Source of the DNA: a virus
Reading direction: 5' to 3' (one strand)
Length of the DNA stretch: 43,152 nt
IMG/VR virus record: IMGVR_UViG_3300023212_000175
Coordinates: 1-43,152 of that record
Of the stretch, positions 989 to 43,152 are shown one piece after another. Numbering within the stretch: the stretch's first letter is position 1; every line of letters starts with the position of its first letter. The position numbers and the translations under genes are program-made. The notes beneath the pieces are model-generated. The model had not been told where the DNA came from, searched no databases, and was given only the letters and a program-made list of their open reading frames with translations.

Positions 989-994
989 AATTTT

Positions 995-2260: not shown

Positions 2261-2378
2261 ACTAACGGACGAAGAAACACACCTCCGTTGGAAAGTTCGT
2301 AAGATAGCATCTAACATCGAACGTGCAATCAAAAGGGACAAATCCAATGAGCAAAATCGAAACAACAACTCTCAATGA
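2181..2378 (+). CDS. Hypothetical protein (start uncertain; alternative ATG at 2235)
   Basis: 65-aa ORF that overlaps both neighbours. This is the weakest gene call in this stretch. Confidence 0.4.
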   Translation: MTLPPLKLRLEDYRLIERMINEIPENELTDEETHLRWKVRKIASNIERAIKRDKSNEQNRNNNSQ

Positions 2379-2523
2379 TTGGATTCTCGATCTTGAGAAT
2401 ACTCAGATAAACTTAGAGTGGCTGATAAAAAGGATTGAAGATCCATTCCCTAATCAACTTCTACGCGCGCTGCTTCGCAATATCAAGAATCTCGAAGAGC
2501 AAATGCGTGAGGTGCAAAAATAA
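2323..2523 (+). CDS. Hypothetical coiled-coil protein (alternative ATG at 2347)
   Basis: 66-aa ORF. Its stop overlaps the SNF2 start (TAATG at 2520..2525). Confidence 0.5.
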   Translation: MQSKGTNPMSKIETTTLNDWILDLENTQINLEWLIKRIEDPFPNQLLRALLRNIKNLEEQMREVQK

Positions 2524-4648: not shown

Positions 4649-4824
4649 GACGTGATAAATACGGAGGCATCATTTTAGCAACTCCAAATCCTGACTGTCC
4701 ATACTGTCAGGCTAAAAATCACCATATGGATATGACTCCTGAAGAACGAAAGAAGTTTCACCCTGATGCCGGAAAGGGAGTGGATAATTTCGGAACCAAA
4801 AGAAAGGAACCTCGCAATGGGTAA
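4645..4824 (+). CDS. 59-aa Cys/His peptide
   Basis: Hand translation: MRRDKYGGIILATPNPDCPYCQAKNHHMDMTPEERKKFHPDAGKGVDNFGTKRKEPRNG. ATGA overlap with the J-domain gene stop. Its own stop overlaps the vWA start. Confidence 0.5.
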   Translation: MRRDKYGGIILATPNPDCPYCQAKNHHMDMTPEERKKFHPDAGKGVDNFGTKRKEPRNG

Positions 4825-5350
4825 CTTAATCCAAAACCAATCGACGATGACTCTTTATCAAAGATTAAAAGCCAGCAAGAACAAACCAGCAATCGCCCTA
4901 GATGTGTCTGCTTCTATGGATGGCATTGTCGAGGGAACCACGCGTGCGATTGATTGTTTACGTCAAGTTATAAAGGACATTCAAGTTTCGGCGAATTATT
5001 ACTGGTTCAACACAGACTGGGGAAAATGCACAAAAGAAAATGTTCCCGAACCAGATGGCGGTACTTGGCTTTCTCCGGTGATCGAAGCCATAAAGTCCGA
5101 TGGTTACAATGAAGCTCTCGTAATAACGGACGGAGATGTGAATGCGAACAATCAAGAACAAACCCTCAAAGCTACCGAGAATATTAAGCTCACGATTTAT
5201 TATGTCGGACCAGGAAAGAGACCAGAATTCCTCGAAAAATTAGCAAAACAATCGGGAGGATTTTGTGAGAAGAGAGACCTGAAATTTACTCAAGAACTTA
5301 CGGAAGCTATCCAAAAACTCTTACCTCCAGCGGGGCCAATTTCGTTATGA
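4817..5350 (+). CDS. von Willebrand factor A (vWA) domain protein with a MIDAS motif
   Basis: IALDVSASMDG (DxSxS), then GGTWLSPVIEAI and ALVITDGDVN. Start trimmed to ATG 4817 (ATGGGTAA overlap). The ORF-track start is 4766. Confidence 0.8.
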   Translation: MGNLIQNQSTMTLYQRLKASKNKPAIALDVSASMDGIVEGTTRAIDCLRQVIKDIQVSANYYWFNTDWGKCTKENVPEPDGGTWLSPVIEAIKSDGYNEALVITDGDVNANNQEQTLKATENIKLTIYYVGPGKRPEFLEKLAKQSGGFCEKRDLKFTQELTEAIQKLLPPAGPISL

Positions 5351-5550
5351 CAAAATGTGTTAACTGTATCTTTTACGATTCAGAGAATTCAAAGGTGGTC
5401 GGGCAGGGTTCTTGCCGTAGAAAACCACCGAGAGCAACGACCTTTCCAACTGCGACACCAGGTGGTATGCAGTTAGTAAATATCACCCTGTGGCCTGAGG
5501 TCAAGGAAACCGATGGTTGTGGTAAAGGACAACCTAAGAACGTTTCGTAG
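5347..5550 (+). CDS. Small Cys-rich protein (CxxC ... C ... WP ... C)
   Basis: 67-aa ORF with ATGA overlap with the vWA stop. Sequence features: CVNCIFYD...GSCRRKPP...LWPEVKETDGCG. Confidence 0.6.
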   Translation: MTKCVNCIFYDSENSKVVGQGSCRRKPPRATTFPTATPGGMQLVNITLWPEVKETDGCGKGQPKNVS

Positions 5551-5573
5551 CACGAAAAGTTAACACGAAGAAA

Positions 5574-6461
5574 ATGGAACAAAAAATAGTTAGTCTTGAC
5601 GCGACGATTCTGAATACTTATCAGAGTTGTCCCTTGAAGGTGAAACAAGCTTTCGTTGATCTCCTCAAACCCAATGTGAAAGCTGAAGCTTTGGAAAAAG
5701 GAGATCTCTTTCACAAACTGCTCGAAGTTTACTACAGCTATCGGTTCGACATGATGGATTTTCGTTCCGATACATGGGGAGAATTAAGAGAGGCCAAAAT
5801 AGAACCGGGAGATTTGACTCCAGAGGTGTTCTGTACCAAAGTAGTTGGACCATTCTTCGCGAGTCAGATGAACACTCCACCAGAAATTCTTGAGGAAGTC
5901 ATATATCAATTCGGTGCATACTGCGAGTTTTATAAACACGATGAGTGGCATCCACTGGCCGTTGAGCAGGTAGGTTCCAAGATTCTCTTTGAGGATGAAG
6001 AGTGGAAAATCATCTACAATATCAAGTGCGATTTGGTCGCTGAGAAGGGAACTCGAATTGCTCCTTGGGATCATAAAACGGGTTCAAGGAGAAGTACTCC
6101 AAATTCAATGTCCAATCAATTCATCGGTACTTGCTTCGTTTTGGGCATGAACTATATGATGATTAACAAGATTGGATTCCAAAAAACTTTGGCTCCAAAT
6201 GAAAGATTTCAGCGCTTCCTTTTGAATATCCCACAAACTAGAATTGACGAGTGGGTCAAAAATACAACCTGGTGGGCGAAAGAACTGCACAAAAGCATTT
6301 CCGAAGATAATTGGCCTATGAATCTGACAGCTTGCGACAAGTACTCCGGTTGCGTGTACATCCCTATTTGTGAATCGACTCCAGAAATGCGTTTGTTCAC
6401 TATTTCAAGAGACTTTTCGGTCGGCGAAAAATGGGACGTTGCGGCTATTTTGGAGGCTTAG
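5574..6461 (+). CDS. PD-(D/E)XK nuclease, Cas4/RecB-like exonuclease with a C-terminal Cys cluster
   Basis: N-terminal Cys (SCPLKV), the core IKCDLVAEKG...WDHKTG, and the C-terminal CDKYSGCVYIPIC typical of Cas4-like 4Fe-4S nucleases. Confidence 0.8.
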   Translation: MEQKIVSLDATILNTYQSCPLKVKQAFVDLLKPNVKAEALEKGDLFHKLLEVYYSYRFDMMDFRSDTWGELREAKIEPGDLTPEVFCTKVVGPFFASQMNTPPEILEEVIYQFGAYCEFYKHDEWHPLAVEQVGSKILFEDEEWKIIYNIKCDLVAEKGTRIAPWDHKTGSRRSTPNSMSNQFIGTCFVLGMNYMMINKIGFQKTLAPNERFQRFLLNIPQTRIDEWVKNTTWWAKELHKSISEDNWPMNLTACDKYSGCVYIPICESTPEMRLFTISRDFSVGEKWDVAAILEA

Positions 6462-6647
6462 ATGATGGAAAACAACGCAAGTAACATCGAACACCTCATA
6501 AACGTAGTTTCCACAATAGGTCATAATCTGACCGAATGGGAGGAAGACTTTATAACATCTATTGCAGTTCAATTTAACGAACGAAGAAGACTTACTGACA
6601 GACAATTTGAGATTCTTGAAAGGATTTATGCGGAGAAGACGCCGTGA
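6462..6647 (+). CDS. Hypothetical protein
   Basis: 61-aa ORF that starts immediately after the previous stop. Confidence 0.6.
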   Translation: MMENNASNIEHLINVVSTIGHNLTEWEEDFITSIAVQFNERRRLTDRQFEILERIYAEKTP

Positions 6648-6922
6648 AGTATAAACACAAAGGTGCACATTTATACGAACGCTTTGTTACAACCAAAGAC
6701 AAGGTCATTTTCAAGTGCATGATTCCTAATTGCACACACTTCTTGACCAATCCAGACATGGTTATCAATCGCTTAACACGTTGTTGGGGTGAGTGCGGCC
6801 GCGAGTTGGTGTACACAAAAGAACATTATCAGGATAAGATAAAGAAACCGCTCTGTGACGAGTGCAGAGAAGAAAGGAAAATACAACGAACACTGTTGTC
6901 GCAAATACCAAATGCCACATAG
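6644..6922 (+). CDS. Zinc-finger protein (multiple Cys/His pairs)
   Basis: 92-aa ORF with GTG start overlapping the previous stop. Cys/His pairs: CMIPNCTH...CWGECG...CDEC. Confidence 0.6.
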   Translation: MKYKHKGAHLYERFVTTKDKVIFKCMIPNCTHFLTNPDMVINRLTRCWGECGRELVYTKEHYQDKIKKPLCDECREERKIQRTLLSQIPNAT

Positions 6923-7790
6923 TACACTAGATTCAGAAATTCAAGAGCACGGCGTTTTCGCTCTTTTCAAGGGAGACACAGGCTCTGGAAAAAGCGTTGG
7001 CGCCTTATCTTTCCCTAAAGCTTATGTTTTTGACCATGATTACAAGATGCCAAATATCGCTCAGAAACACTTTCCTGGGAAAGAGATTTTTTGGGACACA
7101 TTTTTTGACGTTTTCGGTGTTGGAGATAAATTAGCGGAACTCGTTCAGTATTATCCCCACATCAGTAAAGAGGACGCGCAAAAAAATGGCTTTTTTGCGG
7201 AAAACGAATGTCCTTATGAGACCATAATTGGGGACACAGTGACTGGTTTATCATATACCGCGCTCAAAACTGTGGACGATGTTAAGGGACAGAATATTCT
7301 TACAATGCTTAAGAATATTAAAGCGACGAGAAGCGGTGGCAAGATGATCGAACTTCGTGGCTATGATTATTACAACGGAGAAGATTCCTTCCTGAAATAC
7401 TACATCGATACATTAAAGTTCCTTTGGGCGCGTCCCGGAAATCCTAAACACGTTATCATTTGTTGTCATATTATAACTTCCGATCAGAAGGGTCCTCCTG
7501 GATCAAACGTTGTTACACAAACACGAAGAATAGTAACAGCGGGTAACAAAATTGCTGCTTACATCCCAGCACAGTTCGACGAGATGTGGCAATTCTCCAT
7601 CCAACCAGGGGATGCATTCAGTTCCGATTCAAAGGCAAAGCATATCGTCTCTTTTGAAGCCATCGGAGAAGATTCCGCGAAAACTGCTTTGAAGTTACCC
7701 TTCGCGCACCTTGACTTCACAGACCGACCACTATTCGGTCTTTTATCTAGTTATATTAATTTGGGGAAAGTGGAATCAACGGCTTTATAA
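6912..7790 (+). CDS. AAA_24/Sak4-like RecA-fold ATPase (putative recombination ATPase)
   Basis: Walker A FKGDTGSGKS near the N-terminus and Walker B-like HVIICCH. Start trimmed to ATG 6912. The ORF-track start is 6855. Confidence 0.7.
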   Translation: MPHSTLDSEIQEHGVFALFKGDTGSGKSVGALSFPKAYVFDHDYKMPNIAQKHFPGKEIFWDTFFDVFGVGDKLAELVQYYPHISKEDAQKNGFFAENECPYETIIGDTVTGLSYTALKTVDDVKGQNILTMLKNIKATRSGGKMIELRGYDYYNGEDSFLKYYIDTLKFLWARPGNPKHVIICCHIITSDQKGPPGSNVVTQTRRIVTAGNKIAAYIPAQFDEMWQFSIQPGDAFSSDSKAKHIVSFEAIGEDSAKTALKLPFAHLDFTDRPLFGLLSSYINLGKVESTAL

Positions 7791-7811
7791 CAAAAAGCGA
7801 AAGGAAAACAA

Positions 7812-8225
7812 ATGCCAAAAGTTAAGTTCAGCAAATCCGATCTGCTAGCAACTAACCAACTAGACGCGACGTGGTACAAATTGCAAGTCCGAGGCATATC
7901 AGAGTGGAAGCCCGGTAAGACTGACCCAACGTCAAACAACATAGAGGCTGACTTCGTTGTTGTTGACGGTCCAAAGGCCGGGACACCACTAAAGCACTGG
8001 TTCTCGGAGAAGGCAATAGGTACATCCTTCGATATGCTAGCAGAATTCACAGCAACATTCACGGACTCTGGTAAAGCAGAACAAGACAAAGAATATGACC
8101 TGAATTCGGTCATAGGAAAGGAAGTCGCAGCTTACATCGTTTTCGATCCAGAGCGGAAACAAAACACAATCAAAAATTTTCGCAACGTGAATTTCCGTCC
8201 GGCGGTGGGGGTTGCAAAATCATGA
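7812..8225 (+). CDS. Putative ssDNA-binding protein (DUF669-like, called by position)
   Basis: 137-aa ORF with an AAAGGAAA RBS. It lies directly downstream of the AAA_24 ATPase, the usual DUF669 position. No diagnostic motif was verified. Confidence 0.4.
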   Translation: MPKVKFSKSDLLATNQLDATWYKLQVRGISEWKPGKTDPTSNNIEADFVVVDGPKAGTPLKHWFSEKAIGTSFDMLAEFTATFTDSGKAEQDKEYDLNSVIGKEVAAYIVFDPERKQNTIKNFRNVNFRPAVGVAKS

Positions 8226-8401
8226 GATACACATTCAAGATAACAGGAACTCTCGAGGCTGTGAACGAAGACGCTGCAGAGAGTCTCCTCGAAAAAATGT
8301 TGAGCAATCCAGCGGTCGGCGCGGATACAAACATCGAGGTTGAAGAAGACATCAACAACGAAGACGAAGAGAGTGAAGAAGAAGAGGAAGAAGCGAAATA
8401 A
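8222..8401 (+). CDS. 59-aa protein with a strongly acidic C-terminal tail
   Basis: Hand translation: MRYTFKITGTLEAVNEDAAESLLEKMLSNPAVGADTNIEVEEDINNEDEESEEEEEEAK. ATGA overlap with the upstream stop. Confidence 0.5.
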   Translation: MRYTFKITGTLEAVNEDAAESLLEKMLSNPAVGADTNIEVEEDINNEDEESEEEEEEAK

Positions 8402-8407
8402 AACAAA

Positions 8408-8432
8408 GTGGCGCGCGAATAATAAAACATCG
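8408..8432 (+). repeat. Motif GtGGCGCGCGAATAAtAAAaCATCG, copy 1 (core GCGCGCGAATAA at 8411..8422)
   Basis: Occurs 7 nt after the stop of the 8222..8401 ORF. A near-identical copy lies at 8704..8726. Confidence 0.75.
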
Positions 8433-8520
8433 TAAGGGTACGCGATGAGGAATAACGGAATAAAAGGCTTTAACCCTGGGACAACCCCACCGTCGCGCCG
8501 CTAAGAAAAAGGAGAGTAAA

Positions 8521-8700
8521 ATGAAAGAGAAAGACTACCTACAGAACGAAAAGAATACGAACGCAGGACCGGTAATGTCCACCCGATTTAATCAGGTGGA
8601 TCAAGTAGAGGCCGATAACGAGAAGTTGAAAGAAATAATTAATCAACAAAAAGGAGAACTTCTCGATTTGTATCGAAGGATTCTCAGATCGGGGTACTGA
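8521..8700 (+). CDS. 59-aa hypothetical coiled-coil protein
   Basis: Hand translation: MKEKDYLQNEKNTNAGPVMSTRFNQVDQVEADNEKLKEIINQQKGELLDLYRRILRSGY. A strong RBS (AAAAAGGAGAG) lies 5 nt upstream. Confidence 0.5.
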   Translation: MKEKDYLQNEKNTNAGPVMSTRFNQVDQVEADNEKLKEIINQQKGELLDLYRRILRSGY

Positions 8701-8703
8701 AAG

Positions 8704-8726
8704 GTTGCGCGCGAATAAAATATCGG
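8704..8726 (+). repeat. Motif GTTGCGCGCGAATAAAATATCGG, copy 2 (core GCGCGCGAATAA at 8707..8718)
   Basis: Occurs 4 nt after the stop of the 8521..8700 ORF. Confidence 0.75.
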
Positions 8727-8793
8727 AGCCGCCATCAAAAGAATTCTAGATTTATGCTAGAGATGGAGTCAGAATCCACCGACGCGCAAATTT

Positions 8794-8961
8794 ATGTTAG
8801 AGATAATTTACGGACCCGTTGAAGGAATATACGACCTAGAGCGTTACCGTAGATTCGTTAAGGAATACAGGTATGAAATCGTCTCTTGGTACGATGATCA
8901 AGGCAATAGAACCGGACAATATGGGTTACTTGTTTATGTGACATCTGAAGGAGCGGATTAA
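8794..8961 (+). CDS. 55-aa hypothetical protein
   Basis: Hand translation: MLEIIYGPVEGIYDLERYRRFVKEYRYEIVSWYDDQGNRTGQYGLLVYVTSEGAD. The stop TAA (8959..8961) abuts the next ATG at 8962. Confidence 0.45.
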   Translation: MLEIIYGPVEGIYDLERYRRFVKEYRYEIVSWYDDQGNRTGQYGLLVYVTSEGAD

Positions 8962-9288
8962 ATGCTCTGGGGACAAATACTTGACGGCCTTGACGGCAGG
9001 ACTCTAAACTATATAATGAAGCAGGGCTTCTTGATAGTCCGTTCTAATAGAAGAGACGAAATAGGGTTTAGTTTCGAGGGCACGACCTTTGACGGAGTAA
9101 GAGTAGGGACGCGTTTTATCGTTGTCGGATACGCAACATGGAAGGAGTTCGTTCAACAATGTAACGCACTCGAACCAGGATCTAGCGTTAATTCTTTCGG
9201 ACCCCTTCAAGGAGAATACCTCTTGAAAATCATGCCGGAAGACGATTATGATAATATGATTTTTGACAATTTAAGGAGAACAGAATGA
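8962..9288 (+). CDS. Hypothetical protein
   Basis: 108-aa ORF. Its stop overlaps the next start (ATGA). Confidence 0.65.
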   Translation: MLWGQILDGLDGRTLNYIMKQGFLIVRSNRRDEIGFSFEGTTFDGVRVGTRFIVVGYATWKEFVQQCNALEPGSSVNSFGPLQGEYLLKIMPEDDYDNMIFDNLRRTE

Positions 9289-9581
9289 GTACAATGTGGG
9301 TCAATGGTTTGGTTGCACATCGCGATAAAATGCCCTATGTTCAAATTCTTAAGGACGAAAACATAGTCTGTCAGATGTCAGTTGCACAGGCATTCAATTT
9401 CGCGCGGGACATAATACAGTCAATAGCTCGTGTTGAGGCTGATGCGATGCTGCTCAAATTCTTCGATAGAAATAGATTCCCATCAGGCGCTGCTGGAGCA
9501 CTGCTGATGGAGTTTCGAGATTTTCGAGCAGAACTGGACAAGGAGAATCCAAGAGATGACACCAGATCTAAAGGTGACTGA
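9285..9581 (+). CDS. Hypothetical protein
   Basis: 98-aa ORF, translationally coupled to both neighbours. Confidence 0.65.
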   Translation: MSTMWVNGLVAHRDKMPYVQILKDENIVCQMSVAQAFNFARDIIQSIARVEADAMLLKFFDRNRFPSGAAGALLMEFRDFRAELDKENPRDDTRSKGD

Positions 9582-10638
9582 CGAATTAATTGATAAGGTT
9601 GTTGAGGTCATCGCTTCCGACGGCTATGAGAGCGAAAAGACAAAAGAACTCATAGAGCCTGTCAAAGATAACAAGCTCGAACTCCTCCAACTTATCATAA
9701 AAAAGCCCAACATCTCTTGGGTTGATCTCGTTACCATTGAGGCCGAAATTCATTCTTTACAGATTGAACTTCACGGAAAAAATTTGGGCGGCCGACCAAA
9801 AGATGGAATAAAAATTGGTTGGTCTGCGGTCGATACCGCGAGAGAATTGAAACGCGCGATAGGAACCTTTTCCGAAGACTTAAGACTTGCAGAGGCGCTA
9901 AAGCAGAATCCAGGGCTGTCCAAAATTAAGGATAAGACAACAGCTATTAAGCTCGTCCGAAGAATGGCCGCAAGAGAAATTAACGAGCTTGAGTCTTTAA
10001 TCCAAACTCCAAACATGGATCAAGTCCTTTTGGGAGATTCTCTTGATATACTTAAGTTATTCCCCGACAAGACGTTTGACGCTTGCATTACTGATCCACC
10101 GTGGACGGAGTTCAGAGACCCAGAACTCTGTGCAGACGAACACACTCTTCCAATTTTCCGTGAAATCTTTCGAGTACTCAAGTCAGACGCATTCCTTTAC
10201 GCTGTTTTATCTACTCCGGACTTTATCTCTTATTCTAAGATCCTTCCGACTTTCGGTTTTCGTGTTCAAGAATACCCCATTATATGGCAAAAAGTAGGAG
10301 GTATGACTCACGGCTCCTCTGGATGGCAGCACGCGCGCGACTATGAACCAATTCTTTTAGCCGTCAAAGGAGCCCCAGTTTTAACTTCAAGTACTGAAGT
10401 TTCCTCCATCTTTCCCTTTCAAATAGTCCATCATACAAGGATGATCCATCCAAACGAAAAACCGCTAGACCTCGCTAAGACGCTTGTTCGAACCTGCACT
10501 TTTGCCGGTGGAAAAATCCTAGACCCCTTTGCCGGTTCAGGTGTTTTCGTCCATGCGGCAAAAGAATTAGATCGTCGTTATGTCGCTATTGAGAGGAATC
10601 CAAAGTTTCATCAGAATATCGTTAAGAGACTAAAATGA
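9556..10638 (+). CDS. Beta-class N6-adenine/N4-cytosine DNA methyltransferase with an N-terminal DNA-binding (ParB/HTH-like) extension
   Basis: Motif IV CITDPPW precedes motif I ILDPFAGSGV, which is the beta-class order. HPNEKPLDL lies between them. The N-terminal 170 aa contain GGRPKDG...VDTARELKRAIGTFSEDLRLAEAL. No cognate restriction gene is present. Confidence 0.85.
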   Translation: MTPDLKVTDELIDKVVEVIASDGYESEKTKELIEPVKDNKLELLQLIIKKPNISWVDLVTIEAEIHSLQIELHGKNLGGRPKDGIKIGWSAVDTARELKRAIGTFSEDLRLAEALKQNPGLSKIKDKTTAIKLVRRMAAREINELESLIQTPNMDQVLLGDSLDILKLFPDKTFDACITDPPWTEFRDPELCADEHTLPIFREIFRVLKSDAFLYAVLSTPDFISYSKILPTFGFRVQEYPIIWQKVGGMTHGSSGWQHARDYEPILLAVKGAPVLTSSTEVSSIFPFQIVHHTRMIHPNEKPLDLAKTLVRTCTFAGGKILDPFAGSGVFVHAAKELDRRYVAIERNPKFHQNIVKRLK

Positions 10639-10832
10639 GCAAAAACATCAATGGAATTCCAGTCATCTTCGAAGAGGAACCTAATGAGTGTTCTACTTGT
10701 CATAAATTCGAAGAGTGCCGCCCATACGGGAAAAATGGAGCTTTGGTCTGTTTTGATTGTGCAATGAAAGATAAAGAAACGACCAAAGAGCAAATGAATA
10801 TGAGACTCTTTGGAGAACCACCAACACAATGA
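10635..10832 (+). CDS. Small zinc-ribbon protein (CSTC...CFDC)
   Basis: 65-aa ORF with ATGA overlap with the methyltransferase stop. Confidence 0.65.
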   Translation: MSKNINGIPVIFEEEPNECSTCHKFEECRPYGKNGALVCFDCAMKDKETTKEQMNMRLFGEPPTQ

Positions 10833-11068
10833 CTATTGAAGAACTTTGGCAAAAATATCGGTCTGAAGCCATTAAGGAAGAAGTGGACGAAGTTGACCTT
10901 GACGGAATGAAACGTCTATTTTTCGCGGGTGCCTTATCTCTAATGCAAGAGTTTGCGCGCGAGGAAACCGCTCTTTTTTCTAGCTTTTCAGAAGATTTTC
11001 AAAAATTCGATCAGGAGATGCAGGAAAAGTATGGAAGGACAATGGATAAAAGCCAAATTGGTGACTGA
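10829..11068 (+). CDS. Hypothetical acidic protein
   Basis: 79-aa ORF with ATGA overlap. Confidence 0.6.
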   Translation: MTIEELWQKYRSEAIKEEVDEVDLDGMKRLFFAGALSLMQEFAREETALFSSFSEDFQKFDQEMQEKYGRTMDKSQIGD

Positions 11069-11315
11069 CAATATTAAAAGCTATGAAGTGGATGCCCTAA
11101 TTGATCCACTTGAAGGAGTACCCTTAAAATTTGAAACCCCACTAGGTCCATTAAGTGGGAGATTTAACATATATACGATTGCCGCAATGATAACCCTATG
11201 GGACGAAGAATTTTCTCCAAACGGAACAGTAGACATGGAGAAATTCTTGGGAAGGGAATTAATGTTTTTTGTGGAGAACAGCAAAGTGAAGAAAATCAGG
11301 AGGGTGCCATGCTGA
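11031..11315 (+). CDS. Hypothetical protein (start trimmed to ATG 11031)
   Basis: The ORF-track start at 10953 would overlap the previous gene by 116 nt. The start is uncertain. Confidence 0.5.
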   Translation: MEGQWIKAKLVTDNIKSYEVDALIDPLEGVPLKFETPLGPLSGRFNIYTIAAMITLWDEEFSPNGTVDMEKFLGRELMFFVENSKVKKIRRVPC

Positions 11316-11755
11316 AAATAAGCGTAGAAACGATACCCCACAGTTGTCAACGATATGACACAGTCGGAGATTGGACCTTTGAACCAGACGGAACGTTGAA
11401 TGTCAACGTCTCAAAGATCTTGAAAAGAGACGAGGAAATGTCTCAACAGTTAAAAGCGATTGTTGGAGAACATTGTACTGGAGCATTTCAAGAACTTGAG
11501 GATTTCGAATTCCTCGTTGCTATTCATGAAATCATCGAGGCTTGGCTTTGCAAAAAAGACGGAATAACGGCCGAACAAGTCGATGAGTGGGACAAAGGTC
11601 TTTCAGACGAAAGCCTATACGAAGAACCAGGAGAAGATCCCAGAGCACCATACCACATTCAACATCTAATTGCCACATCAATAGAAGTAATGCTGTGTGC
11701 GCAATTGAAATTGAATTGGGCGGAATACGACCAGCATGTAAAAAATGTCACCTAA
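11309..11755 (+). CDS. Conserved phage protein of unknown function (IPHxxQRYDTVGDW N-terminus)
   Basis: ATG 11309 lies 5 nt after AGGAGG (11298..11303). The ORF-track start at 11198 overlaps the upstream gene. Confidence 0.65.
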   Translation: MLKISVETIPHSCQRYDTVGDWTFEPDGTLNVNVSKILKRDEEMSQQLKAIVGEHCTGAFQELEDFEFLVAIHEIIEAWLCKKDGITAEQVDEWDKGLSDESLYEEPGEDPRAPYHIQHLIATSIEVMLCAQLKLNWAEYDQHVKNVT

Positions 11756-14207
11756 GTACGTTGGTGGTTGTGGTCCATCCACAGCAAAACTCGCGTTAGT
11801 TGGTGAGGCGCCTGGAGAAAGGGAAGAAGCTATAGGAATTCCCTTCTCCGGTCCTTCAGGAAAGCTCGTAGACGAATGTCTAGAAAGTGTAGGTATTTCT
11901 CGTGATTCAGTGTATCTTACCAATGTATGCAAAGTACGTCCACCTAACAATGATCTTAGGTTACTTAATCTTGTGGGTCACAAGTTGGATGATTTTATAC
12001 CGCAGTTACGAGAAGAACTGCGAAGCCTCAATCCGAACTGCATCCTTGCTATTGGTGCTACTGCTTTGTGCGCTCTTACTGGGCTGGATGGCATTAAGCA
12101 TTATCGTGGCAGCATATTGCAAACTGATCTAGGGATTAAACTAGTTTCAACCCTTCATCCTGCGGGTCTCTTGCACGCAGAATCTGAGGAATCGAAAATG
12201 CTCTCGTGGAAGGACCTAACATACATCAAATGGGACTTCGCGCGCGCCGTAGAAGAATCGAGATATCCTGAATATGATACTCCACACCGTAACCTCATTG
12301 CTTGCCGTAGTTCCATTGACTTATATCAATTTCTGGATCGTCATAAGAGTAAAACGATTGTTTCGGTCGACATTGAGACCTTTAGAACTATACCTATTTG
12401 CATTGCTCTTGCTTTTAGTCGAGACGAAGCAATTAGTATTCCACTTGTCAACATCCACGGCAATGTTATTCCTCGCTCTGATTTGGTCAATCTTTGGTTT
12501 GAAGTTGCTCGAATTCTAGCCGACCCGAAAATTAGGAAGGTAGGTCAGAATTTCAAATTCGATGAAAAGCAATCAGATGAGTGTGTAAACGGCACTCTAT
12601 TCTATGGTCTTAAGACGTATTCGTTTTGGTTCGATACTCTTTTAGCTTTTAGAACCTTATACCCAGAACTTCCTGGGAAACTTGAATTCATAACAAGCGT
12701 TTTAACAAGAGAACCTTATTATAAAGAAGAGGGCAAGGGTTTTAATCCTAAGAAAGATAAGTTCGATAGACTTCTTTTGTACAACGCCAGAGATGCTGCT
12801 GTTACATTTGAAGTTTATGAGAAAGAATTGGAGGAACTGAAAGATAGAAATCTTGAGCAGTTCTTCTTCACCCGAGTCATGCCATTGCATCCCTTTTATT
12901 CTCGTATTGAGGGTTGGGGAATTAAGAGGGATGCTTTCAAACAAAGATTTCTTCTGGAAAAGTATAAGGACAAGCTCAAAGAAGCGCAAGAAGAACTAGA
13001 TTCTCTTTGCGCGTCGTACATTGGGGACCGACGAATAAATGCAAATAGCAACAAAGACGTACCTTGGTTGTTTTTTGTAGTTTTAAAACTACCAGCGAGA
13101 AAGAGGACGGATGAAAAAACGATTGATTCCTTACTCAGAAACGTTGTTAAAGATACGGACAAACGAAGAATTCTTAAATTGGTTCTCCTTATTAGAAAAA
13201 TTAAGAAGACCATCGGAACTTATGTTGAGTGTAATCCGTCACCTGACGGACGAATCAGAACTTCGTTTAGGATTGCGTTGGAAACTGGACGAACATCAAC
13301 AGGGATTCTCAAGTCTCCTGTTACCACAGAACCAATGGGATGTGCTCTTCAAACGCTTACCAAGCACGGCGATGTTGGGTCTGATATTCGGTCGATGTAC
13401 GTACCTGACGAGGGATACGTTTTCCTGGAGCCCGATTTATCAGGAGCAGAGGCTAGAGTTGTTGCTATCTTGGCAAATGATCTTAAGTTGCAGAAGATCT
13501 TTGAATACAATCTGGACATCCACAGAATCACTTATGGATGGATTCAGGATATAGCTCCTAATAACCTTTTGGATGAATTTTTTCAATGTACTAATGTCTC
13601 AAGAATTCTTGAACTTAAAACAGCCATAAGTAGATACCTCAAAGAATTAATAGATGACGAAACAAGACAACTTGGTAAGAAATTCAGACACGCGGCTCAT
13701 TATGACATGGGTAAACGAGTTGCCTCAGAACTTACAGGTTTAAGCGAATGGCGTTGTGGTAAGATCTTGGAGAAAGTTCACGTTACAAATTCGAATATCA
13801 AGGGAGTCTTTCACAAAGGAATCCAAGATTGTCTCAAGAATAATGATCGCACTTTAACAAGTCCTCACGGCCGTGTTCGTCAGTTCCTTAATAAATGGGG
13901 CGATGAACTTTTTAAGGAGGCTTATGCCCAGATACCGCAGGCAACGGTATCTGATCAGACTAAATTCGCGGCCCAGAGAATTGAAAAGCGATGTCCTTAT
14001 ATAAAGATTCTCTCGGAATCTCATGATAGCTTCTTATCGATGGTTCCTATTCCTAAAGTGGACGAAGTTATTAAGGTCATAATGGAAGAAATGCAACAGC
14101 CTATTGACTTTTCCAAGTGCTCTCTTGGAGGAAACAAAGTCCTTGTAATACCGTGTGAAGTCAAAATTGGAAAAAACAATTGGGAAATAATGGAGAAAAT
14201 CGCATGA
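11745..14207 (+). CDS. Family A DNA polymerase with an N-terminal family-4 uracil-DNA-glycosylase-like domain and a 3'-5' exonuclease domain
   Basis: UDG4 motifs GEAPGEREEAIGIPFSGPSGKL and STLHPAGLL. Exo motifs VSVDIET, GQNFKFD and YNARDAAV. Pol motif A DLSGAEARVVA, motif B RQLGKKFRHAAHYDMG and motif C ESHDSF. Confidence 0.9.
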   Translation: MSPKYVGGCGPSTAKLALVGEAPGEREEAIGIPFSGPSGKLVDECLESVGISRDSVYLTNVCKVRPPNNDLRLLNLVGHKLDDFIPQLREELRSLNPNCILAIGATALCALTGLDGIKHYRGSILQTDLGIKLVSTLHPAGLLHAESEESKMLSWKDLTYIKWDFARAVEESRYPEYDTPHRNLIACRSSIDLYQFLDRHKSKTIVSVDIETFRTIPICIALAFSRDEAISIPLVNIHGNVIPRSDLVNLWFEVARILADPKIRKVGQNFKFDEKQSDECVNGTLFYGLKTYSFWFDTLLAFRTLYPELPGKLEFITSVLTREPYYKEEGKGFNPKKDKFDRLLLYNARDAAVTFEVYEKELEELKDRNLEQFFFTRVMPLHPFYSRIEGWGIKRDAFKQRFLLEKYKDKLKEAQEELDSLCASYIGDRRINANSNKDVPWLFFVVLKLPARKRTDEKTIDSLLRNVVKDTDKRRILKLVLLIRKIKKTIGTYVECNPSPDGRIRTSFRIALETGRTSTGILKSPVTTEPMGCALQTLTKHGDVGSDIRSMYVPDEGYVFLEPDLSGAEARVVAILANDLKLQKIFEYNLDIHRITYGWIQDIAPNNLLDEFFQCTNVSRILELKTAISRYLKELIDDETRQLGKKFRHAAHYDMGKRVASELTGLSEWRCGKILEKVHVTNSNIKGVFHKGIQDCLKNNDRTLTSPHGRVRQFLNKWGDELFKEAYAQIPQATVSDQTKFAAQRIEKRCPYIKILSESHDSFLSMVPIPKVDEVIKVIMEEMQQPIDFSKCSLGGNKVLVIPCEVKIGKNNWEIMEKIA

Positions 14208-14587
14208 AAATTTACTTAGCTTCGAATTACTCAAGCCACCCAGAAATGAGGAAATACAGAGCTTTTCTTGAATCAAAAGGGTTCAAAGTTACTTCGCGCT
14301 GGATAAACGGAGAGCATGAAGTCCTCGAAGGCCAAGATCATGAAATAAACTCCAAATTTGCTCAAGACGATTGGGAGGATATAAATGATTCCAATTTAGT
14401 TCTTTGGTTTTCAACGAACAAGTCAAATCGTGGACGAGGTGGTCGGCATGTTGAATTTGGAATTGCTCTTGCCTTAAGCATCGAGATAAGAGTAATCGGT
14501 AAGAAAGAAAATATTTTTCATTGGTTGCCTCAGGTGAAGCATTTTAAGAGTTTAGAGGACTCAATAAAGGATATAAGACCACTATGA
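14204..14587 (+). CDS. Nucleoside 2-deoxyribosyltransferase-like (Rcl/NDT-fold) protein
   Basis: MKIYLASNYSS at the N-terminus and GGRHVEFGIALAL near the C-terminus resemble the NDT/Rcl signature. ATGA overlap with the polymerase stop. The ORF-track start is 14180. Confidence 0.45.
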   Translation: MKIYLASNYSSHPEMRKYRAFLESKGFKVTSRWINGEHEVLEGQDHEINSKFAQDDWEDINDSNLVLWFSTNKSNRGRGGRHVEFGIALALSIEIRVIGKKENIFHWLPQVKHFKSLEDSIKDIRPL

Positions 14588-14883
14588 AATCAGAAATAAT
14601 TTGGTCAGACAAAATAAAGATTCCTCATCAGCCAAGGATGCACGAATTTCTCCAAAAACAAGCTAATCGTTTGGTTGTTGGTCACATTCGTTATGGAATA
14701 CCAGAAGTAAGAAAAAAATACATGACACGTATTTCTATCGAATTGAAAGCTTATAAGAAATCTGGTAATCTTGAGCATCTTTATAATATCGCTAATTATT
14801 GTATCCTTGAATCCCTCAAACCGGAAAACACAAAATTTCATTTTGATGGAAGAGTAGATTCGGTAACGCGTGGAAAAATTTAA
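14584..14883 (+). CDS. Hypothetical protein (weak resemblance to small all-alpha MazG/DUF550-type NTP pyrophosphohydrolases)
   Basis: 99-aa ORF with ATGA overlap. The only hint is VVGHIRYG...ELKAYKKSGNLEHLYNIANYCILE. Confidence 0.55.
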   Translation: MKSEIIWSDKIKIPHQPRMHEFLQKQANRLVVGHIRYGIPEVRKKYMTRISIELKAYKKSGNLEHLYNIANYCILESLKPENTKFHFDGRVDSVTRGKI

Positions 14884-15128
14884 TGGGTGAGCACAAGTCA
14901 GAGTACTGCAGAAGAGGCCTTCATAAGATGGAAGGAGAAAATCTTTACGTTGCAAAAAATCATAGGCAGTGTCGTCTCTGTCGCAATGAAACAGCACGAA
15001 GAAATCAAAGGGACTATAGAGACAGAAAAAGAAGAGAAAAAACTGCACTTCAGGGTAACGGGAAGCCAGATGAACAATTAGACAGAGAGGCAGCCGAGTG
15101 GCTGATAAATCATGGCTGGACGTCTTAA
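14883..15128 (+). CDS. Small basic zinc-binding protein (C-x2-GLH ... C-x2-C, HNH-like remnant)
   Basis: 81-aa ORF with TAATG overlap. Sequence: YCRRGLHKMEGENLYVAKNHRQCRLCRNETARRNQRDYR. Preferred over the overlapping frame 14887..15081 because of the coupling and the Cys pattern. Confidence 0.5.
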   Translation: MGEHKSEYCRRGLHKMEGENLYVAKNHRQCRLCRNETARRNQRDYRDRKRREKTALQGNGKPDEQLDREAAEWLINHGWTS

Positions 15129-16291
15129 CAGAATCTACGGTTGAATTAGAGCCACCCGAGAGATTCTTTTGGTGGAGCGGATTAGCTGCCATTTCAGCGG
15201 TAGTGAGGAAAAATGTTTTTTTGAATCGATTTAGTTACATTCTATATCCTAATATTTATGTCGTTCTGGTGTCATCAAAATCAGGACTGAGGAAGGGTAT
15301 ACCTATAGGGTATGCTAGATCTATCGTTAAGCATCTTGATTGTACCCGCGTTGTATCCGGTGCTACCTCAGTTCCCGCTCTTCTTGAAGAACTCGGTAAT
15401 CAAAGAACAACTGCGAGTGGTAAAGTTTTTTCGGACGCGCAAGCATTCATCTGTGCCCCTGAACTTGATGGTTTTCTTGTTCAGGATGATAAATCTCTCG
15501 TAGTTTTGACTGACATTCATAACACACACGAACACGAAGATGGATACGAGAAGAACCTGAAGTCGGGGCGCGTGTTTTTGAAAAGCCCTTGTATTACCCT
15601 TTTGGGAGCATCAAATGAAGTTCTCTTTGAGGATTTTGTTCGGGCTCGTGATGTTGAGGGAGGCTTTCTTGCTAGGACCTTTATCGTTCACGAGTCCAAG
15701 AGACGTCGTAATAATTCACTCATGTGGAAACCAGATCAACTCGTCGAGCGCTCGGTACTAGCACAGAATCTTGAACGTCTTGTTAGTCTTACGGGTGTAT
15801 TTCAAATTCCCGAACAAGCCAGACATCATTATAATGATTGGTATAATGAAATTTCGAATTCAGGATTCGATGATCGGACAGGTTCAATCGAGCGTATTGG
15901 TGATCAGGTTCTTAAGGTAGCAATGCTTGTTAGTCTTTCTAAATCTAACAATTTAGAGATAACCGTAGAAGACTTGGATACCGCAATACAACGTTGTGAA
16001 GAAGCCGTAGTTGGTACCAAAAAGGTCTCAATGGGGCAGGGACGATCTGAAGTAACACCCATTGTTTCCGAAATCATAAAACTTTTAGTTGACGCTCCCG
16101 AACAAGAAGTCGAACGTGCGAAACTCTTAGACAAAACCAAGTGTGAGCCCCTGCAATTAGATCGCGCCTTAGATACTTTAATTCAGAGAGATATGATTGA
16201 TGGTCCTTTTCGTAAGCAAGGAAGCAAAAAGTTTTTCTACAAGATGAAAAAATCAGTCTACGAGAAGTATTTGAAGATAAGAGAAATATGA
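15098..16291 (+). CDS. Putative replication ATPase/helicase (DUF3987-like)
   Basis: 397 aa with a GTG start. The N-terminal pattern ERFFWWSGLAAISAVV...PNIYVVLVSSKSGLRKG resembles DUF3987 proteins with a degenerate P-loop. Not verified by any search. Confidence 0.4.
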   Translation: MADKSWLDVLTESTVELEPPERFFWWSGLAAISAVVRKNVFLNRFSYILYPNIYVVLVSSKSGLRKGIPIGYARSIVKHLDCTRVVSGATSVPALLEELGNQRTTASGKVFSDAQAFICAPELDGFLVQDDKSLVVLTDIHNTHEHEDGYEKNLKSGRVFLKSPCITLLGASNEVLFEDFVRARDVEGGFLARTFIVHESKRRRNNSLMWKPDQLVERSVLAQNLERLVSLTGVFQIPEQARHHYNDWYNEISNSGFDDRTGSIERIGDQVLKVAMLVSLSKSNNLEITVEDLDTAIQRCEEAVVGTKKVSMGQGRSEVTPIVSEIIKLLVDAPEQEVERAKLLDKTKCEPLQLDRALDTLIQRDMIDGPFRKQGSKKFFYKMKKSVYEKYLKIREI

Positions 16292-16677
16292 ACTTTTCAA
16301 AGTTTTGGATTGACGAGTGTGAAGATTGTCCTCCAGATACAATCAGATTTATCAAAGACGGTAAAATTGTTCACGAAATAAGGAACATTGGAATGCCTCA
16401 AGATCCATTACTAACGCGAATCTCATGGGAGCAGTACATTAAAATCCATGAATTCAAACCAGGACATATTTATATTGTCCTCTTTGACCCTGCAGTCCTC
16501 GGCGTCGGTGATATTACTAAATTCGGAAAGGATATTCCTTTAGAATACCCAGATGTGGAGATAATTTTCGTCCCAGTACAAGGAAAGGTGGAAGAGGCAA
16601 CGATAACTCTTGAACAAGTGGAGTTTATAAAACAATGGCTCAGGGAAGTAGAATCACGTTTACAGAAAGAGAGCTAG
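16288..16677 (+). CDS. Hypothetical protein
   Basis: 129-aa ORF with ATGA overlap. Confidence 0.65.
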   Translation: MNFSKFWIDECEDCPPDTIRFIKDGKIVHEIRNIGMPQDPLLTRISWEQYIKIHEFKPGHIYIVLFDPAVLGVGDITKFGKDIPLEYPDVEIIFVPVQGKVEEATITLEQVEFIKQWLREVESRLQKES

Positions 16678-40628: not shown

Positions 40629-41141
40629 TCAAATTTCGATCGTCTTGAATGACTTTTCACTCCTTTGTTCTGGACAGTAAACTATCACATTGACGGGCGC
40701 TTGACTCTCTTCTCGTGGTAACGTGCGATCCATGACCTTCGCCATGTTGGCAGCAATTCGAGAAAGTCCTTGAGCATTCTCCCTTGAGAGTTTGTCATCG
40801 GAGATCAAACCCATTGATGCCATTAGCTTATCGACAGCAATGTCTCTGACCTCCTTCAACTGTTGTTGCAGCGCTTGTTCGTCCAGAGATTTATCTTTCC
40901 CTCTTTCAAGTTGGGAGACGCGCGCTTGCGTTGTGCTGAACTCAGAAGCTAAATCCGCTTGCAATTCACCCAAACGAGAGCGAAGCGCGATTTCATTTCT
41001 TTTAACGACCTCAAGATTAGGAACTCCTGTTTTCCTCCCCGGTCGATGAATGATGCGCTCCTGAACTCCGGAACCAAAGCGCAGAGCTAGATTGTCCGGG
41101 GAGGAAAGTCTTTGATCTACTTGTTCATTGCTGAGAAGCAT
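40629..41141 (-). CDS. XRE-type HTH DNA-binding protein; small terminase subunit candidate
   Basis: LRSRLGELQADLASEFSTTQARVSQLERGK is HTH-like and is followed by a helical region. It is the second gene of the late arm, upstream of TerL. Confidence 0.4.
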   Translation of the reverse strand: MLLSNEQVDQRLSSPDNLALRFGSGVQERIIHRPGRKTGVPNLEVVKRNEIALRSRLGELQADLASEFSTTQARVSQLERGKDKSLDEQALQQQLKEVRDIAVDKLMASMGLISDDKLSRENAQGLSRIAANMAKVMDRTLPREESQAPVNVIVYCPEQRSEKSFKTIEI

Positions 41142-41403: not shown

Positions 41404-41432
41404 AGTATAAGCGAAGCGCCTTGTCCTGTCAA
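41404..41432 (-). promoter_or_regulatory. Sigma70-type late promoter: TTGACA (41432..41427), 17 nt, TATACT (41409..41404)
   Basis: Consensus -35, a 5/6 match at -10 and an ideal spacer, read on the reverse complement directly upstream of the first late gene. Confidence 0.65.
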
Positions 41433-41466: not shown

Positions 41467-41508
41467 GCGCTGCGCTGCCCTGCGCTTCAATGCGGGGCAG
41501 CGCAGCGC
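41467..41508. promoter_or_regulatory. Perfect 14-bp GC-rich inverted repeat GCGCTGCGCTGCCC / GGGCAGCGCAGCGC with a 14-nt loop
   Basis: Read directly. It lies 35-75 bp upstream of the late -35. No U-run follows on either strand. Confidence 0.7.
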
Positions 41509-41530
41509 AAACTTACCCTACCCCAACGAA

Positions 41531-41617
41531 ACGAAAGGTTTTCTAGGGCTTTACTGCCCCGAATAAAAAACGAAAGGTTATTTGCACGTCCAATAACTTC
41601 TCGCCTCACGAAAGGTT
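41531..41617 (+). repeat. Three direct copies of ACGAAAGGTT (41531..41540, 41570..41579, 41608..41617), spaced 39 and 38 bp
   Basis: Read directly. The same core occurs twice in inverted orientation at 160..168 and 221..229. Confidence 0.8.
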
Positions 41618-41775
41618 ATGAGAATTTATTTTTTCTACGACGGAAATATGGTTCGACACTTTCAGGGGACCCCTTTTGTGGAAAATAGTGGGAGGTCAAG
41701 CCCGGCGCTCGCGCCGGGGGGAGCGACGGTCGTGGGACTCCTACGGACATGGGGGTGGGGGTGTCTGAAGTTAAC

Positions 41776-41945
41776 TTTGGATAATAAGATCTTAATATCT
41801 TAATAGTTTAAGAGTTTAAGATCTTTTTGTCTTAATAGTTTAAGATATTAAGATCTTAAATTCTTAATATATTAATACCTGAATACCTTTTTATATTGAG
41901 AGATTAATACCTTTCTATCTTAATATCTTAATACCTTAATATCCG
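41776..41945. repeat. AT-rich microrepeat array (CTTAATA / ATCTTAA units in both orientations) preceded by a DnaA-box-like TTATCCAAA (reverse complement of 41776..41784); candidate replication origin
   Basis: CTTAATA starts at 41791, 41799, 41831, 41863, 41919, 41927 and 41935. TAAGAT starts at 41786, 41816, 41841 and 41848. CTTAATAGTTTAAG occurs twice. TTAATACCT occurs three times. Confidence 0.5.
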
Positions 41946-41960
41946 AAATAGCTGCAAAAA

Positions 41961-41988
41961 GAAAACCGGAGTTTTACCTCCGGTTTTC
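41961..41988 (-). terminator. Intrinsic terminator for leftward transcription: GAAAACCGGAG / CTCCGGTTTTC stem, 6-nt loop, T5 run on the minus strand
   Basis: An 11-bp perfect stem read directly. On the minus strand it is followed by TTTTTGCAGC (reverse complement of 41951..41960). It lies 5 nt after the stop of the 41993..42148 ORF. Confidence 0.8.
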
Positions 41989-41992
41989 TGAA

Positions 41993-42148
41993 TTACCTCC
42001 AGCCTTTCGGCGTCCCGTAGACCATCCGCGCGCGCCTCCCCTCAGCCTGATTAGCGCGAAGTCGCGCGCGTCGCAGAAGGTACAAAGAGAAAGGATCGTA
42101 GTCCAGAGAGTCAATCACCTGAGAGAAAATCCGTTGGGTTTTAATCAT
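41993..42148 (-). CDS. 51-aa Arg-rich peptide
   Basis: Hand translation: MIKTQRIFSQVIDSLDYDPFSLYLLRRARLRANQAEGRRARMVYGTPKGWR. An AGGAG RBS lies 7 nt upstream. A terminator follows. Confidence 0.5.
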   Translation of the reverse strand: MIKTQRIFSQVIDSLDYDPFSLYLLRRARLRANQAEGRRARMVYGTPKGWR

Positions 42149-43025: not shown

Positions 43026-43152
43026 CCGGCCGTCCACCCGCTGTCCACCCGCCGAATGCGGCCCGAATTCGATCGAGCAAAACGCATAAATGCCGCGCTA
43101 TCATAAGTTTACCCGTATTCAAAGCCTCACTACCCCTATGTTCAAAAAAAAA
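43026..43152. repeat. Exact 127-bp terminal duplication, copy 2 (identical to 1..127)
   Basis: See the entry for 1..127. Confidence 0.95.

What the first reader, a model, noticed from the sequence alone, without database searches (positions are those of the whole stretch)
41776..41945. AT-rich heptamer array with an adjacent DnaA-box-like sequence: candidate origin of replication
Within about 165 bp, CTTAATA occurs at least 7 times on the + strand. The related TAAGAT/ATCTTAA occurs at least 4 times, giving palindromes such as AAGATCTTAA. CTTAATAGTTTAAG occurs twice and TTAATACCT three times. TTATCCAAA (8/9 match to the DnaA box TTATCCACA) lies at the left edge on the complement. The array sits between the leftward terminator and the late control region. 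This is not a CRISPR array, because the units are 7 nt and have no spacers. The alternative is a nucleoid-protein or bending region that insulates the two transcription units.
Basis: partly seen in the sequence, partly recalled or inferred. Interest (0 to 1): 0.5.

Follow-up and report, generated by a model that had tools for sequence, protein, structure and literature searches.

The report
Phased TTAA box array in phage
An uncultured 43-kb phage carries about 20 back-to-back 8-bp palindromic "TTAA boxes", conserved in two relatives, which look like a landing pad coated by many copies of a DNA-binding protein in front of the packaging and structural genes; a role as replication origin is neither shown nor excluded.

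Summary
Window 41782-41941 holds 20 contiguous 8-nt slots. Fourteen carry TTAA, all in one register. The box consensus is the palindrome T[C/A]TTAA[G/T]A, in both orientations, with a 32-nt super-period. The unit is 8 nt, not 7.

The array is the least stable duplex in the genome (z 5.4). It lies between an intrinsic terminator and a C-run/GTAGGAGTCCCA element, about 350 nt upstream of a near-consensus sigma70 promoter for the terminase and structural operon.

The same phased TTAA array, in the same place, occurs in the closest relative (TerL 66%) and in a distant one (49%). Relatives at 52-61% lack it. Five of them carry other short, mostly palindromic repeats there.

The origin reading is undecided. 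The skew minimum follows the coding-strand switch 1-2 kb away. DnaA-like boxes occur at chance frequency. No initiator gene lies nearby.

My best reading (about 0.4) is an operator-like lattice coated cooperatively by a dimeric protein, with the geometry of MetJ boxes or ParG parH/OF, controlling the head of the late/packaging operon. Origin (0.25) and terminase loading site (0.2) remain open. No binding protein was identified.

The adjacent C-run element also precedes terS in phages that share no detectable proteins with this one.

The parts
41782..41941 (.). Array of 20 contiguous 8-nt slots. Fourteen slots have a perfect TTAA core. The box consensus is T[C/A]TTAA[G/T]A, a palindrome, present in both orientations.
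   Evidence: The pooled consensus of 25 boxes from three phages is.
41785..41869 (.). 32-nt super-repeat (four boxes each, 2.7 copies). GATC lies at 41788, 41820 and 41852, exactly 32 nt apart, which is about 3 helical turns.
41776..41784 (-). DnaA-box-like TTATCCAAA (8 of 9) at the edge of the array nearest the late genes.
   Evidence: One search shows one of 14 such matches in the genome, which is chance level. A similar TTATCAACA sits at the same place in L001.
41950..41989 (-). Intrinsic terminator of the leftward three-gene cassette: a 12-bp stem followed by a T-run, ending about 5 nt before the array.
   Evidence: (-23.7 kcal/mol, z -6.2) and inverted repeat I20. The scan did not list it, probably because of how it counts the tail.
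41733..41770 (-). C-run (CCCCCACCCCC) followed by GTAGGAGTCCCA, 12 nt downstream of the array on the late strand. The GGAGTCCCA part is unique in the genome.
41702..41720 (-). GC-rich hairpin followed by CTTGAC. L001 has the same arrangement with a different stem sequence.
   Evidence: Direct reading.
41531..41617 (+). Three direct copies of ACGAAAGGTT at 38-39 nt spacing. This is a second repeat family, which also flanks the early promoter at 160 and 221.
   Evidence: A related CGCAACTTT repeat, 8.6 copies, occurs in relative L146.
41404..41432 (-). Sigma70-type promoter TTGACA-17-TATACT (11 of 12) for the leftward late/packaging operon.
40629..41141 (-). 170-aa HTH protein, the second gene of the late operon. 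It is either a regulator or a small terminase subunit: an HTH, then a helical hairpin, then a conserved C-terminal strand.
41993..42148 (-). 51-aa basic protein, the last gene before the terminator and the array. It is conserved in L001 but was not found in L040.

Best explanation
The array is a lattice of about 20 tandem 8-bp palindromic boxes, T[C/A]TTAA[G/T]A. I propose that it is coated cooperatively by a dimeric, sequence-specific DNA-binding protein, one dimer per box. With four boxes per three helical turns, the protein would spiral around the DNA.

The array sits directly after the terminator of the early leftward cassette and directly before a conserved C-run/GTAGGAGTCCCA core, at the head of the roughly 550-nt control region of the terminase and structural operon. 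I read it as an operator-like nucleoprotein array. It would gate what happens at that core, namely the start of late expression, and would shield the late operon from leftward read-through.

Shown: the phased palindromic boxes, their position, and their conservation in two relatives. Inferred: that a protein binds them, the one-dimer-per-box geometry, and the regulatory effect. The binding protein is unidentified.
For: 1. Strict 8-nt register and a palindromic consensus in both orientations.
2. The same geometry is documented for ParG on parH/OF: 20 tetramer boxes separated by 4-bp spacers, in direct and inverted orientation, with one RHH dimer per box (PMC3130281). From my own knowledge it also holds for MetJ on tandem 8-bp met boxes.
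3. The same phased TTAA array lies in the same place (terminator, then array, then C-run, then late genes) in L001/L021 (TerL 66%) and in L040 (TerL 49%). The surrounding non-coding DNA and the upstream genes differ.
4. Other relatives have lineage-specific repeats at or just upstream of that spot. Four are dyad-like: TTGCAA x5 in L146, TAGTACTA-type x3 in L147, AAAGTACTTT x2 in L187, and an imperfectly repeated long palindrome in L152. L155 has a 17-nt direct repeat. Dyad motifs are the usual look of operators for dimeric regulators.
5. The box sequence is almost absent elsewhere in the genome, so this is a single dedicated site.
6. A near-consensus sigma70 late promoter implies that some mechanism must delay late expression.
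Against: No binding protein was found. The small ORFs give no RHH or other DNA-binding hit.

The only neighbouring DNA-binding protein is the 170-aa HTH protein. Its recognition helix is identical in the window and L001 and similar in L146, all of which carry AAC(C)TTTC-type repeats; it differs in L040, which has the TTAA boxes.

The array lies 350-540 nt upstream of the late promoter, which is far for a classical operator. Twenty boxes is unusually many.

The array's extreme AT content and its self-complementarity as single-stranded DNA (z -5.3) would suit an unwinding element equally well.
Confidence: 0.4

Rival explanations
1. Replication origin. The boxes would be short iterons for a phage initiator or helicase, and the 170-nt stretch at 19% GC would be the unwinding element. 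The terminator would keep transcription out of the initiation complex.
For: - It is the lowest duplex stability in the genome (z 5.45).
- It is the only long repeat array in the genome.
- There are no repeats next to the DUF3987 helicase gene.
- Short 5-6-nt iterons flanking an AT-rich centre are known for SaPI origins (PMC9371898).
- DnaA-box-like 9-mers sit at the same edge in the window and in L001.
- Three GATC sites lie 32 nt apart, and the phage encodes an N6/N4 methyltransferase.
Against: - The skew extremes track the coding-strand switches, not the array.
- DnaA-like boxes occur at chance frequency.
- No initiator gene is adjacent, whereas SaPI origins lie immediately downstream of rep.
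- The boxes are palindromic and of mixed orientation.
- The array is missing from relatives at 52-61% TerL identity that keep the same replication genes.
- Copy number varies from about 6 to 20 slots between phages.
Confidence: 0.25
2. Packaging recognition site, like pacL or cosB. The small terminase or an accessory protein would load on the boxes, and the terminase would act at or near the adjacent conserved C-run element.
For: - The region lies upstream of the terminase operon.
- Two repeat families flank a conserved core, as in SPP1, where direct repeats span the promoters and the start of the small-terminase gene (PMC4737164).
- The 170-aa HTH protein has a small-terminase-like layout.
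- Its language-model neighbours are viral HTH_23, HTH_7 and HTH_psq proteins.
- A weak structural match covers the helical hairpin of the G20C small terminase (Z 5.2).
- In other phages the C-run element lies 100-400 nt upstream of terS and terL.
Against: - The C-run element is shared by phages whose TerL and TerS-like proteins show no similarity to the window's. Two complete such genomes share no detectable protein with the window. That argues against a terminase-specific site.
- An 8-bp phase does not match the roughly one-turn spacing of HTH motifs on small-terminase rings.
- The TTAA boxes do not co-vary with the HTH protein.
- Contig ends do not coincide with the element.
Confidence: 0.2
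3. The array has no dedicated phage function. It would be a slippage-born 8-mer microsatellite, or simply AT-rich DNA bound non-specifically by a host nucleoid protein.
Against: - This array is imperfect yet keeps register.
- It mixes both orientations.
- It keeps the TTAA core while the flanking positions vary.
- It persists at the same position at 49% TerL identity, where neutral non-coding DNA is unalignable.
Confidence: 0.1

Closest known systems
ParG-bound parH centromere and OF operator of plasmid TP228 (PMC3130281)
   Same: Both have about 20 degenerate tetramer boxes at an 8-bp period with 4-bp spacers. Both have boxes in direct and inverted orientation. Both arrays are about 100-160 bp long and lie upstream of an operon. 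In TP228 one dimer binds per box and coats the site cooperatively.
   Different: The core here is TTAA, not ACTC. Here the core is AT-rich and the spacers are mixed, which is the reverse of parH. No ParG-like RHH gene or ParA/ParF gene was found. The genome looks like that of a virulent phage, with no plasmid or lysogeny genes seen among the ORFs scanned.
MetJ met boxes (tandem 8-bp palindromes, AGACGTCT consensus). This comparison rests on my own knowledge.
   Same: Contiguous 8-bp palindromic boxes, each a dimer site, with cooperativity between neighbours.
   Different: Met operators have 2-5 boxes, whereas this array has about 20. The sequence is unrelated. No MetJ-like protein was identified.
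SaPI replication origins (PMC9371898)
   Same: Short repeats next to an AT-rich stretch. Initiation would be by a self-loading helicase, and the phage has a DUF3987 helicase-like gene.
   Different: SaPI iterons are 5-6 nt long, number 6-12, lie in two opposed sets around the AT-rich centre, and sit immediately downstream of rep. Here the array is 17 kb or more from the helicase gene and has no two-set layout in the relatives.
SPP1 and SF6 pac region (PMC4737164)
   Same: Sets of repeats upstream of and overlapping the start of the packaging operon. An HTH protein is encoded just downstream.
   Different: SPP1 has a few direct repeats and bendable DNA, not a strictly phased palindromic lattice. 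The role of those repeats in binding is itself doubtful.

Membership tests
DnaA-dependent or iteron-type replication origin | A cluster of DnaA boxes above the background frequency | tested here: not met
   There is one 8-of-9 match at the array edge. Genome-wide there are 14 matches against 9.5 +/- 3.3 expected, scattered over the genome.
DnaA-dependent or iteron-type replication origin | An AT-rich unwinding element of low helical stability | tested here: met
   The array is the least stable segment of the genome at window sizes of 60, 100 and 170 nt (z 4.3 to 5.5).
DnaA-dependent or iteron-type replication origin | A strand-composition switch (skew extremum) at the site, not explained by gene orientation | tested here: inconclusive
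   The minimum lies at about 43,019 to about 1,000 and the maximum at 16,868. Both are at coding-strand switches. The curve is flat over the array.
DnaA-dependent or iteron-type replication origin | An initiator gene next to the repeats, and replication start mapped there | not testable with these tools
   No initiator is recognisable nearby. Marker-frequency data are not available.
RHH-coated box arrays (ParG parH/OF, MetJ, omega) | Contiguous short boxes at a fixed sub-helical period (7-8 bp), tolerated in both orientations | tested here: met
   Fourteen of 19 slots are in one 8-nt register. The boxes TCTTAATA and TATTAAGA are reverse complements of each other.
RHH-coated box arrays (ParG parH/OF, MetJ, omega) | A cognate ribbon-helix-helix protein encoded by the element | tested here: inconclusive
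   About 45 window ORFs gave no RHH family hit in Pfam or PHROGs. Small divergent RHH proteins are easily missed.
RHH-coated box arrays (ParG parH/OF, MetJ, omega) | A partner ParA-type ATPase (for a centromere role) | tested here: inconclusive
   The only P-loop hit among the ORFs scanned is AAA_24/Sak4. Most of the long leftward structural ORFs between about 20.5 and 36.9 kb were not scanned.
pac or cos packaging recognition region | Location at or just upstream of the small-terminase gene | tested here: inconclusive
   The array is 640 nt upstream of an HTH protein that may be the small terminase. The fold search did not decide this.
pac or cos packaging recognition region | Genome termini or the first cut map to the site | not testable with these tools
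   The 127-nt end overlap of the record probably reflects assembly of a circular or concatemeric molecule; that is my inference. Contig ends of relatives do not coincide with the element.
CRISPR array | Repeats of 25-40 nt separated by unique spacers | tested here: not met
   The units are 8 nt and contiguous, with no spacers.

The most novel reading that the evidence does not exclude
The TTAA lattice and the adjacent C-run/GG(A/G)GTCCCA core would together form an undescribed two-part cis-element that marks the head of the packaging operon. The core is shared by phages with no detectable protein homology, and it also occurs in genome-bin contigs labelled with several bacterial phyla. It would therefore be read by universal host machinery, or would act through DNA or RNA structure. 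The lineage-specific repeat arrays next to it would be gates bound by lineage-specific proteins.
Probability: 0.2. Interest if true: 0.7.

Novelty: new variant of a known kind. Interest (0 to 1): 0.42.

Why it matters
The phage family has no cultured relative (TerL 33% identity or less to any deposited phage) and no prophage relative in 185,579 species genomes. Nothing is known about how it times late genes, starts replication or starts packaging.

A 20-box lattice with this degree of order is a clean handle. A pull-down with the array should identify the protein that governs the early-to-late boundary. The neighbouring C-run element may be a widespread and so far undescribed signal upstream of terminase genes.

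If the array is only an operator-like site, it is an ordinary kind of element in an unusual format.

Tried and rejected
- Close DNA relatives among deposited phages: none.
- Rfam families: none in the window or in 11 loci carrying the C-run element.
- tRNAs in the window: none.
- The metagenome scan returned only the same phage as L001.
- The pattern CTTAATANCTTAATA in viral contigs gave no further relatives.
- A generic (TTAA-N4)x5 scan mostly returned unrelated microsatellites, but it did yield the distant relative L040.
- The fold of the 170-aa HTH protein (pLDDT 76) gave no decisive match. Foldseek found nothing at E 0.001 or better. VIA-align found transposase-type HTH domains and generic helical hairpins at Z about 6, with the G20C small terminase only at rank 46.
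- The Atlas search on the 142-aa cassette protein was uninformative.
- A sigma54 promoter reading of the C-run element was considered and rejected by inspection: the -24 element is a poor match and the orientation is wrong.
- CtrA boxes (TTAA-N7-TTAA) were rejected because the spacing here is N4.
- The idea that the array occurs only where upstream genes are co-directional and end in a terminator was weakened. L147 has its palindromic repeats next to mostly divergent upstream genes, and L146 next to a largely non-coding stretch.

Full report
**Setting.** The window is a complete IMG/VR virus record. Bases 1-127 repeat at 43026-43152. I take this 127-nt overlap to reflect assembly of a circular or concatemeric molecule, so the map is a 43,025-nt circle; that is my inference.
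- The + strand from about 250 to 16,677 carries the early and replication genes: an SNF2 helicase, a PD-(D/E)XK nuclease, a Sak4-like ATPase, an N6/N4 methyltransferase, a UDG-PolA fusion and a DUF3987 helicase-like protein.
- The - strand from 41,394 down to 16,883 carries one long late operon that includes TerL.
- A small leftward cassette at 42,891-41,993 lies upstream of the finding.
- No cultured phage is close: TerL is at most 33% identical. No prophage relative was found in the species-genome collection.

**The observation.**
- All 14 TTAA tetramers in the region start at 41792 + 8k. They fill 14 of 19 slots, and three more slots match 3 of 4.
- Read in register, the boxes are TCTTAATA (6 copies), its reverse complement TATTAAGA, GTTTAAGA (3 copies), and near variants.
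- Pooling 25 boxes from three phages gives T(76%) [C/A] T T A A [G/T] A(80%), an 8-bp palindrome.
- Tandem Repeats Finder reports period 8 with 19.9 copies, plus a 32-nt super-period. GATC recurs at 41788, 41820 and 41852. Four boxes therefore span three helical turns.
- Chance is excluded. Simulated sequences of the same composition never exceeded 5 TTAA in one register. The three-box pattern occurs 7 times, all here, against 0 in shuffles.
- As single-stranded DNA the segment folds far better than shuffles (z -5.3). That follows from the palindromic boxes.

**Anatomy on the late (-) strand.** The order is as follows.
- The stop codon of the 51-aa ORF.
- The terminator hairpin at 41989-41960 plus a T-run.
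- The array, 41941-41782.
- TTATCCAAA.
- A C-run and GTAGGAGTCCCA (41770-41733).
- A GC hairpin followed by CTTGAC.
- Three copies of AACCTTTCGT.
- A GC-rich inverted repeat at about 41467-41510, read from the sequence.
- The promoter TTGACA-17-TATACT at 41432-41404.
- The first late gene, then the 170-aa HTH protein.

**Relatives.**
- The closest relative is L001, the same phage as L021 (TerL 66%). It shows the same order with a shorter array: TTAA in 5 of 6 slots, in the same 8-nt register.
- A scan of viral contigs for five phased TTAA returned mostly unrelated perfect microsatellites. It also returned L040, a genuine distant relative: TerL 49%, SNF2 38%, J-domain protein 46%, nuclease 39%, HTH protein 26%.
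- In L040 the order on the late strand is a terminator, then TCTTAATA CCTTAATA CCTTAATA TCTTAATA TCTTAATA TCTTAAGA TATTGAGA, then a C-run, then three copies of a different repeat, then a promoter and the HTH gene. The upstream genes are not homologous to the window's cassette.
- A profile search for TerL gave 65 related loci. None of the others has 5 or more phased TTAA.
- Several of those with the region intact carry other short repeats at the equivalent spot, at or upstream of a C-run followed by GGGTCCCA(T). These are TTGCAA x5 in L146, TAGTACTA-type x3 in L147, AAAGTACTTT x2 in L187, CATACGTT-containing 17-mers x3 in L155, and an imperfectly repeated long palindrome in L152.
- So a function at this position appears conserved while the recognised sequence changes from lineage to lineage. 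That is the usual behaviour of binding sites for fast-evolving specificity proteins.

**Who binds?** I could not tell.
- Pfam and PHROGs found no RHH or other DNA-binding domain among the small ORFs.
- The only nearby DNA-binding protein is the 170-aa HTH protein.
- Its recognition helix is identical in the window and L001 and similar in L146. All three have AAC(C)TTTC-type repeats.
- It is different in L040, which has the TTAA boxes but another second repeat. On these few genomes, the HTH protein goes with the second repeat family, not with the TTAA boxes.
- The HTH protein's model (pLDDT 76) is an HTH, a long helical hairpin and a conserved C-terminal strand. That layout suits a small terminase subunit or a regulator. 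The fold searches did not decide, and the language-model neighbours are viral HTH proteins.

**Origin test.**
- For: the array is the least stable duplex in the genome (z 5.45 at 170 nt). The second least stable is the A-tract of the early control region. There are no repeats near the DUF3987 gene.
- Against or uninformative: the cumulative skew peaks at 16,868 and bottoms at about 43,019 to about 1,000, which are exactly the two coding-strand switches, and it is flat over the array.
- DnaA-like 9-mers are at chance frequency.
- No initiator gene is adjacent.
- The boxes are palindromic.
- Relatives that share the replication genes lack the TTAA array.
- I therefore leave the origin reading open at about 0.25.

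**Packaging test.**
- The C-run plus GTAGGAGTCCCA element occurs in 14 stretches of viral contigs, 12 of them outside the window's own phage family.
- In eight of these it lies 200-400 nt upstream of a block of genes of about 200, 510 and 820 aa. Two of the 510-aa proteins were scanned and both carry a terminase nuclease domain. In another locus it lies about 100 nt upstream of a Terminase_2 small subunit.
- That points to the head of the packaging operon.
- However, those terminases and small-subunit candidates show no similarity to the window's.
- Two complete genomes of that group share no detectable protein with the window.
- The element also occurs in contigs of genome bins labelled Nitrospinota, Flavobacteriales, Luminiphilus and Sediminibacterium.
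- A site read by one specific terminase is therefore unlikely.
- Contig ends do not coincide with it, and no Rfam family matches it.

**Reading.**
- The geometry has documented precedents. These are ParG on the 20 tetramer boxes of parH/OF, with 4-bp spacers, both orientations and one RHH dimer per box (PMC3130281). From my own knowledge they also include MetJ on tandem 8-bp met boxes and omega on 7-bp heptads.
- Dyad-like repeats at the same spot in relatives look more like operators than like direct iterons or terminase sites.
- A near-consensus sigma70 late promoter needs something to hold it back early in infection.
- I therefore favour an operator-like, cooperatively coated array that gates the head of the late/packaging operon and blocks leftward read-through (0.4). 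The rivals are origin (0.25), terminase loading site (0.2) and no dedicated function (0.1).
- The binding, the stoichiometry and the effect are all inferred. Only the sequence order and its conservation are shown.

**Limits.** There are only three independent genomes with the array. The host is unknown. No read-level data were available.

Noticed in passing
window 41733-41770 (- strand); L007-L020; L317-L324: A C-run (CCCCACCCCC) followed 2-14 nt later by GTAGGAGTCCCA; relatives have GGGTCCCA(T) instead. The GGAGTCCCA part is unique in the window. The element recurs upstream of terS, terL and portal genes in viral contigs that share no detectable protein with this phage. It also occurs in 8 genome-bin contigs from several phyla, twice about 150 nt from a tRNA. 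No Rfam family matches. In each lineage it is preceded by different short repeats.
   Followed up: partly
window 41531-41617, 160-168, 221-229; L146 1373-1445: The ACGAAAGGT motif has 5 copies in the window, all in the two control regions. Relative L146 has the related CGCAACTTT as a 9-nt tandem array of 8.6 copies. On a handful of genomes, the motif family appears to go with the recognition helix of the 170-aa HTH protein.
   Followed up: partly
window 1-127 and 43026-43152: An exact 127-nt repeat at the two ends of the record. I think this is an assembly overlap of a circular or concatemeric genome rather than a true terminal repeat. L001's contig breaks at the same A-tract.
   Followed up: no
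window 41700-41765 (+ strand): Four G-runs (G6, G3, G5, G5) on the + strand opposite the C-run element, giving possible G-quadruplex or i-motif potential.
   Followed up: no
window 40629-41141 (- strand): A 170-aa HTH protein conserved across the whole TerL-defined family (16 sequences aligned). It has an invariant C-terminal YxPE motif region and a variable recognition helix. It may be the missing small terminase subunit or a late regulator.
   Followed up: partly
window 41993-42148 (- strand); L001 918-1052: A 51-aa arginine-rich protein ending in GxPxxWR, conserved in L001 and encoded immediately before the terminator and the array. No family hit. It is a possible small nucleic-acid-binding protein.
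   Followed up: no
L146 1180-1290: Two copies of a long composite palindrome (CGAAGATCTTCG plus GTAAGTAAGTACTTACTTAC) lie between the TTGCAA repeats and the C-run in this relative.
   Followed up: no
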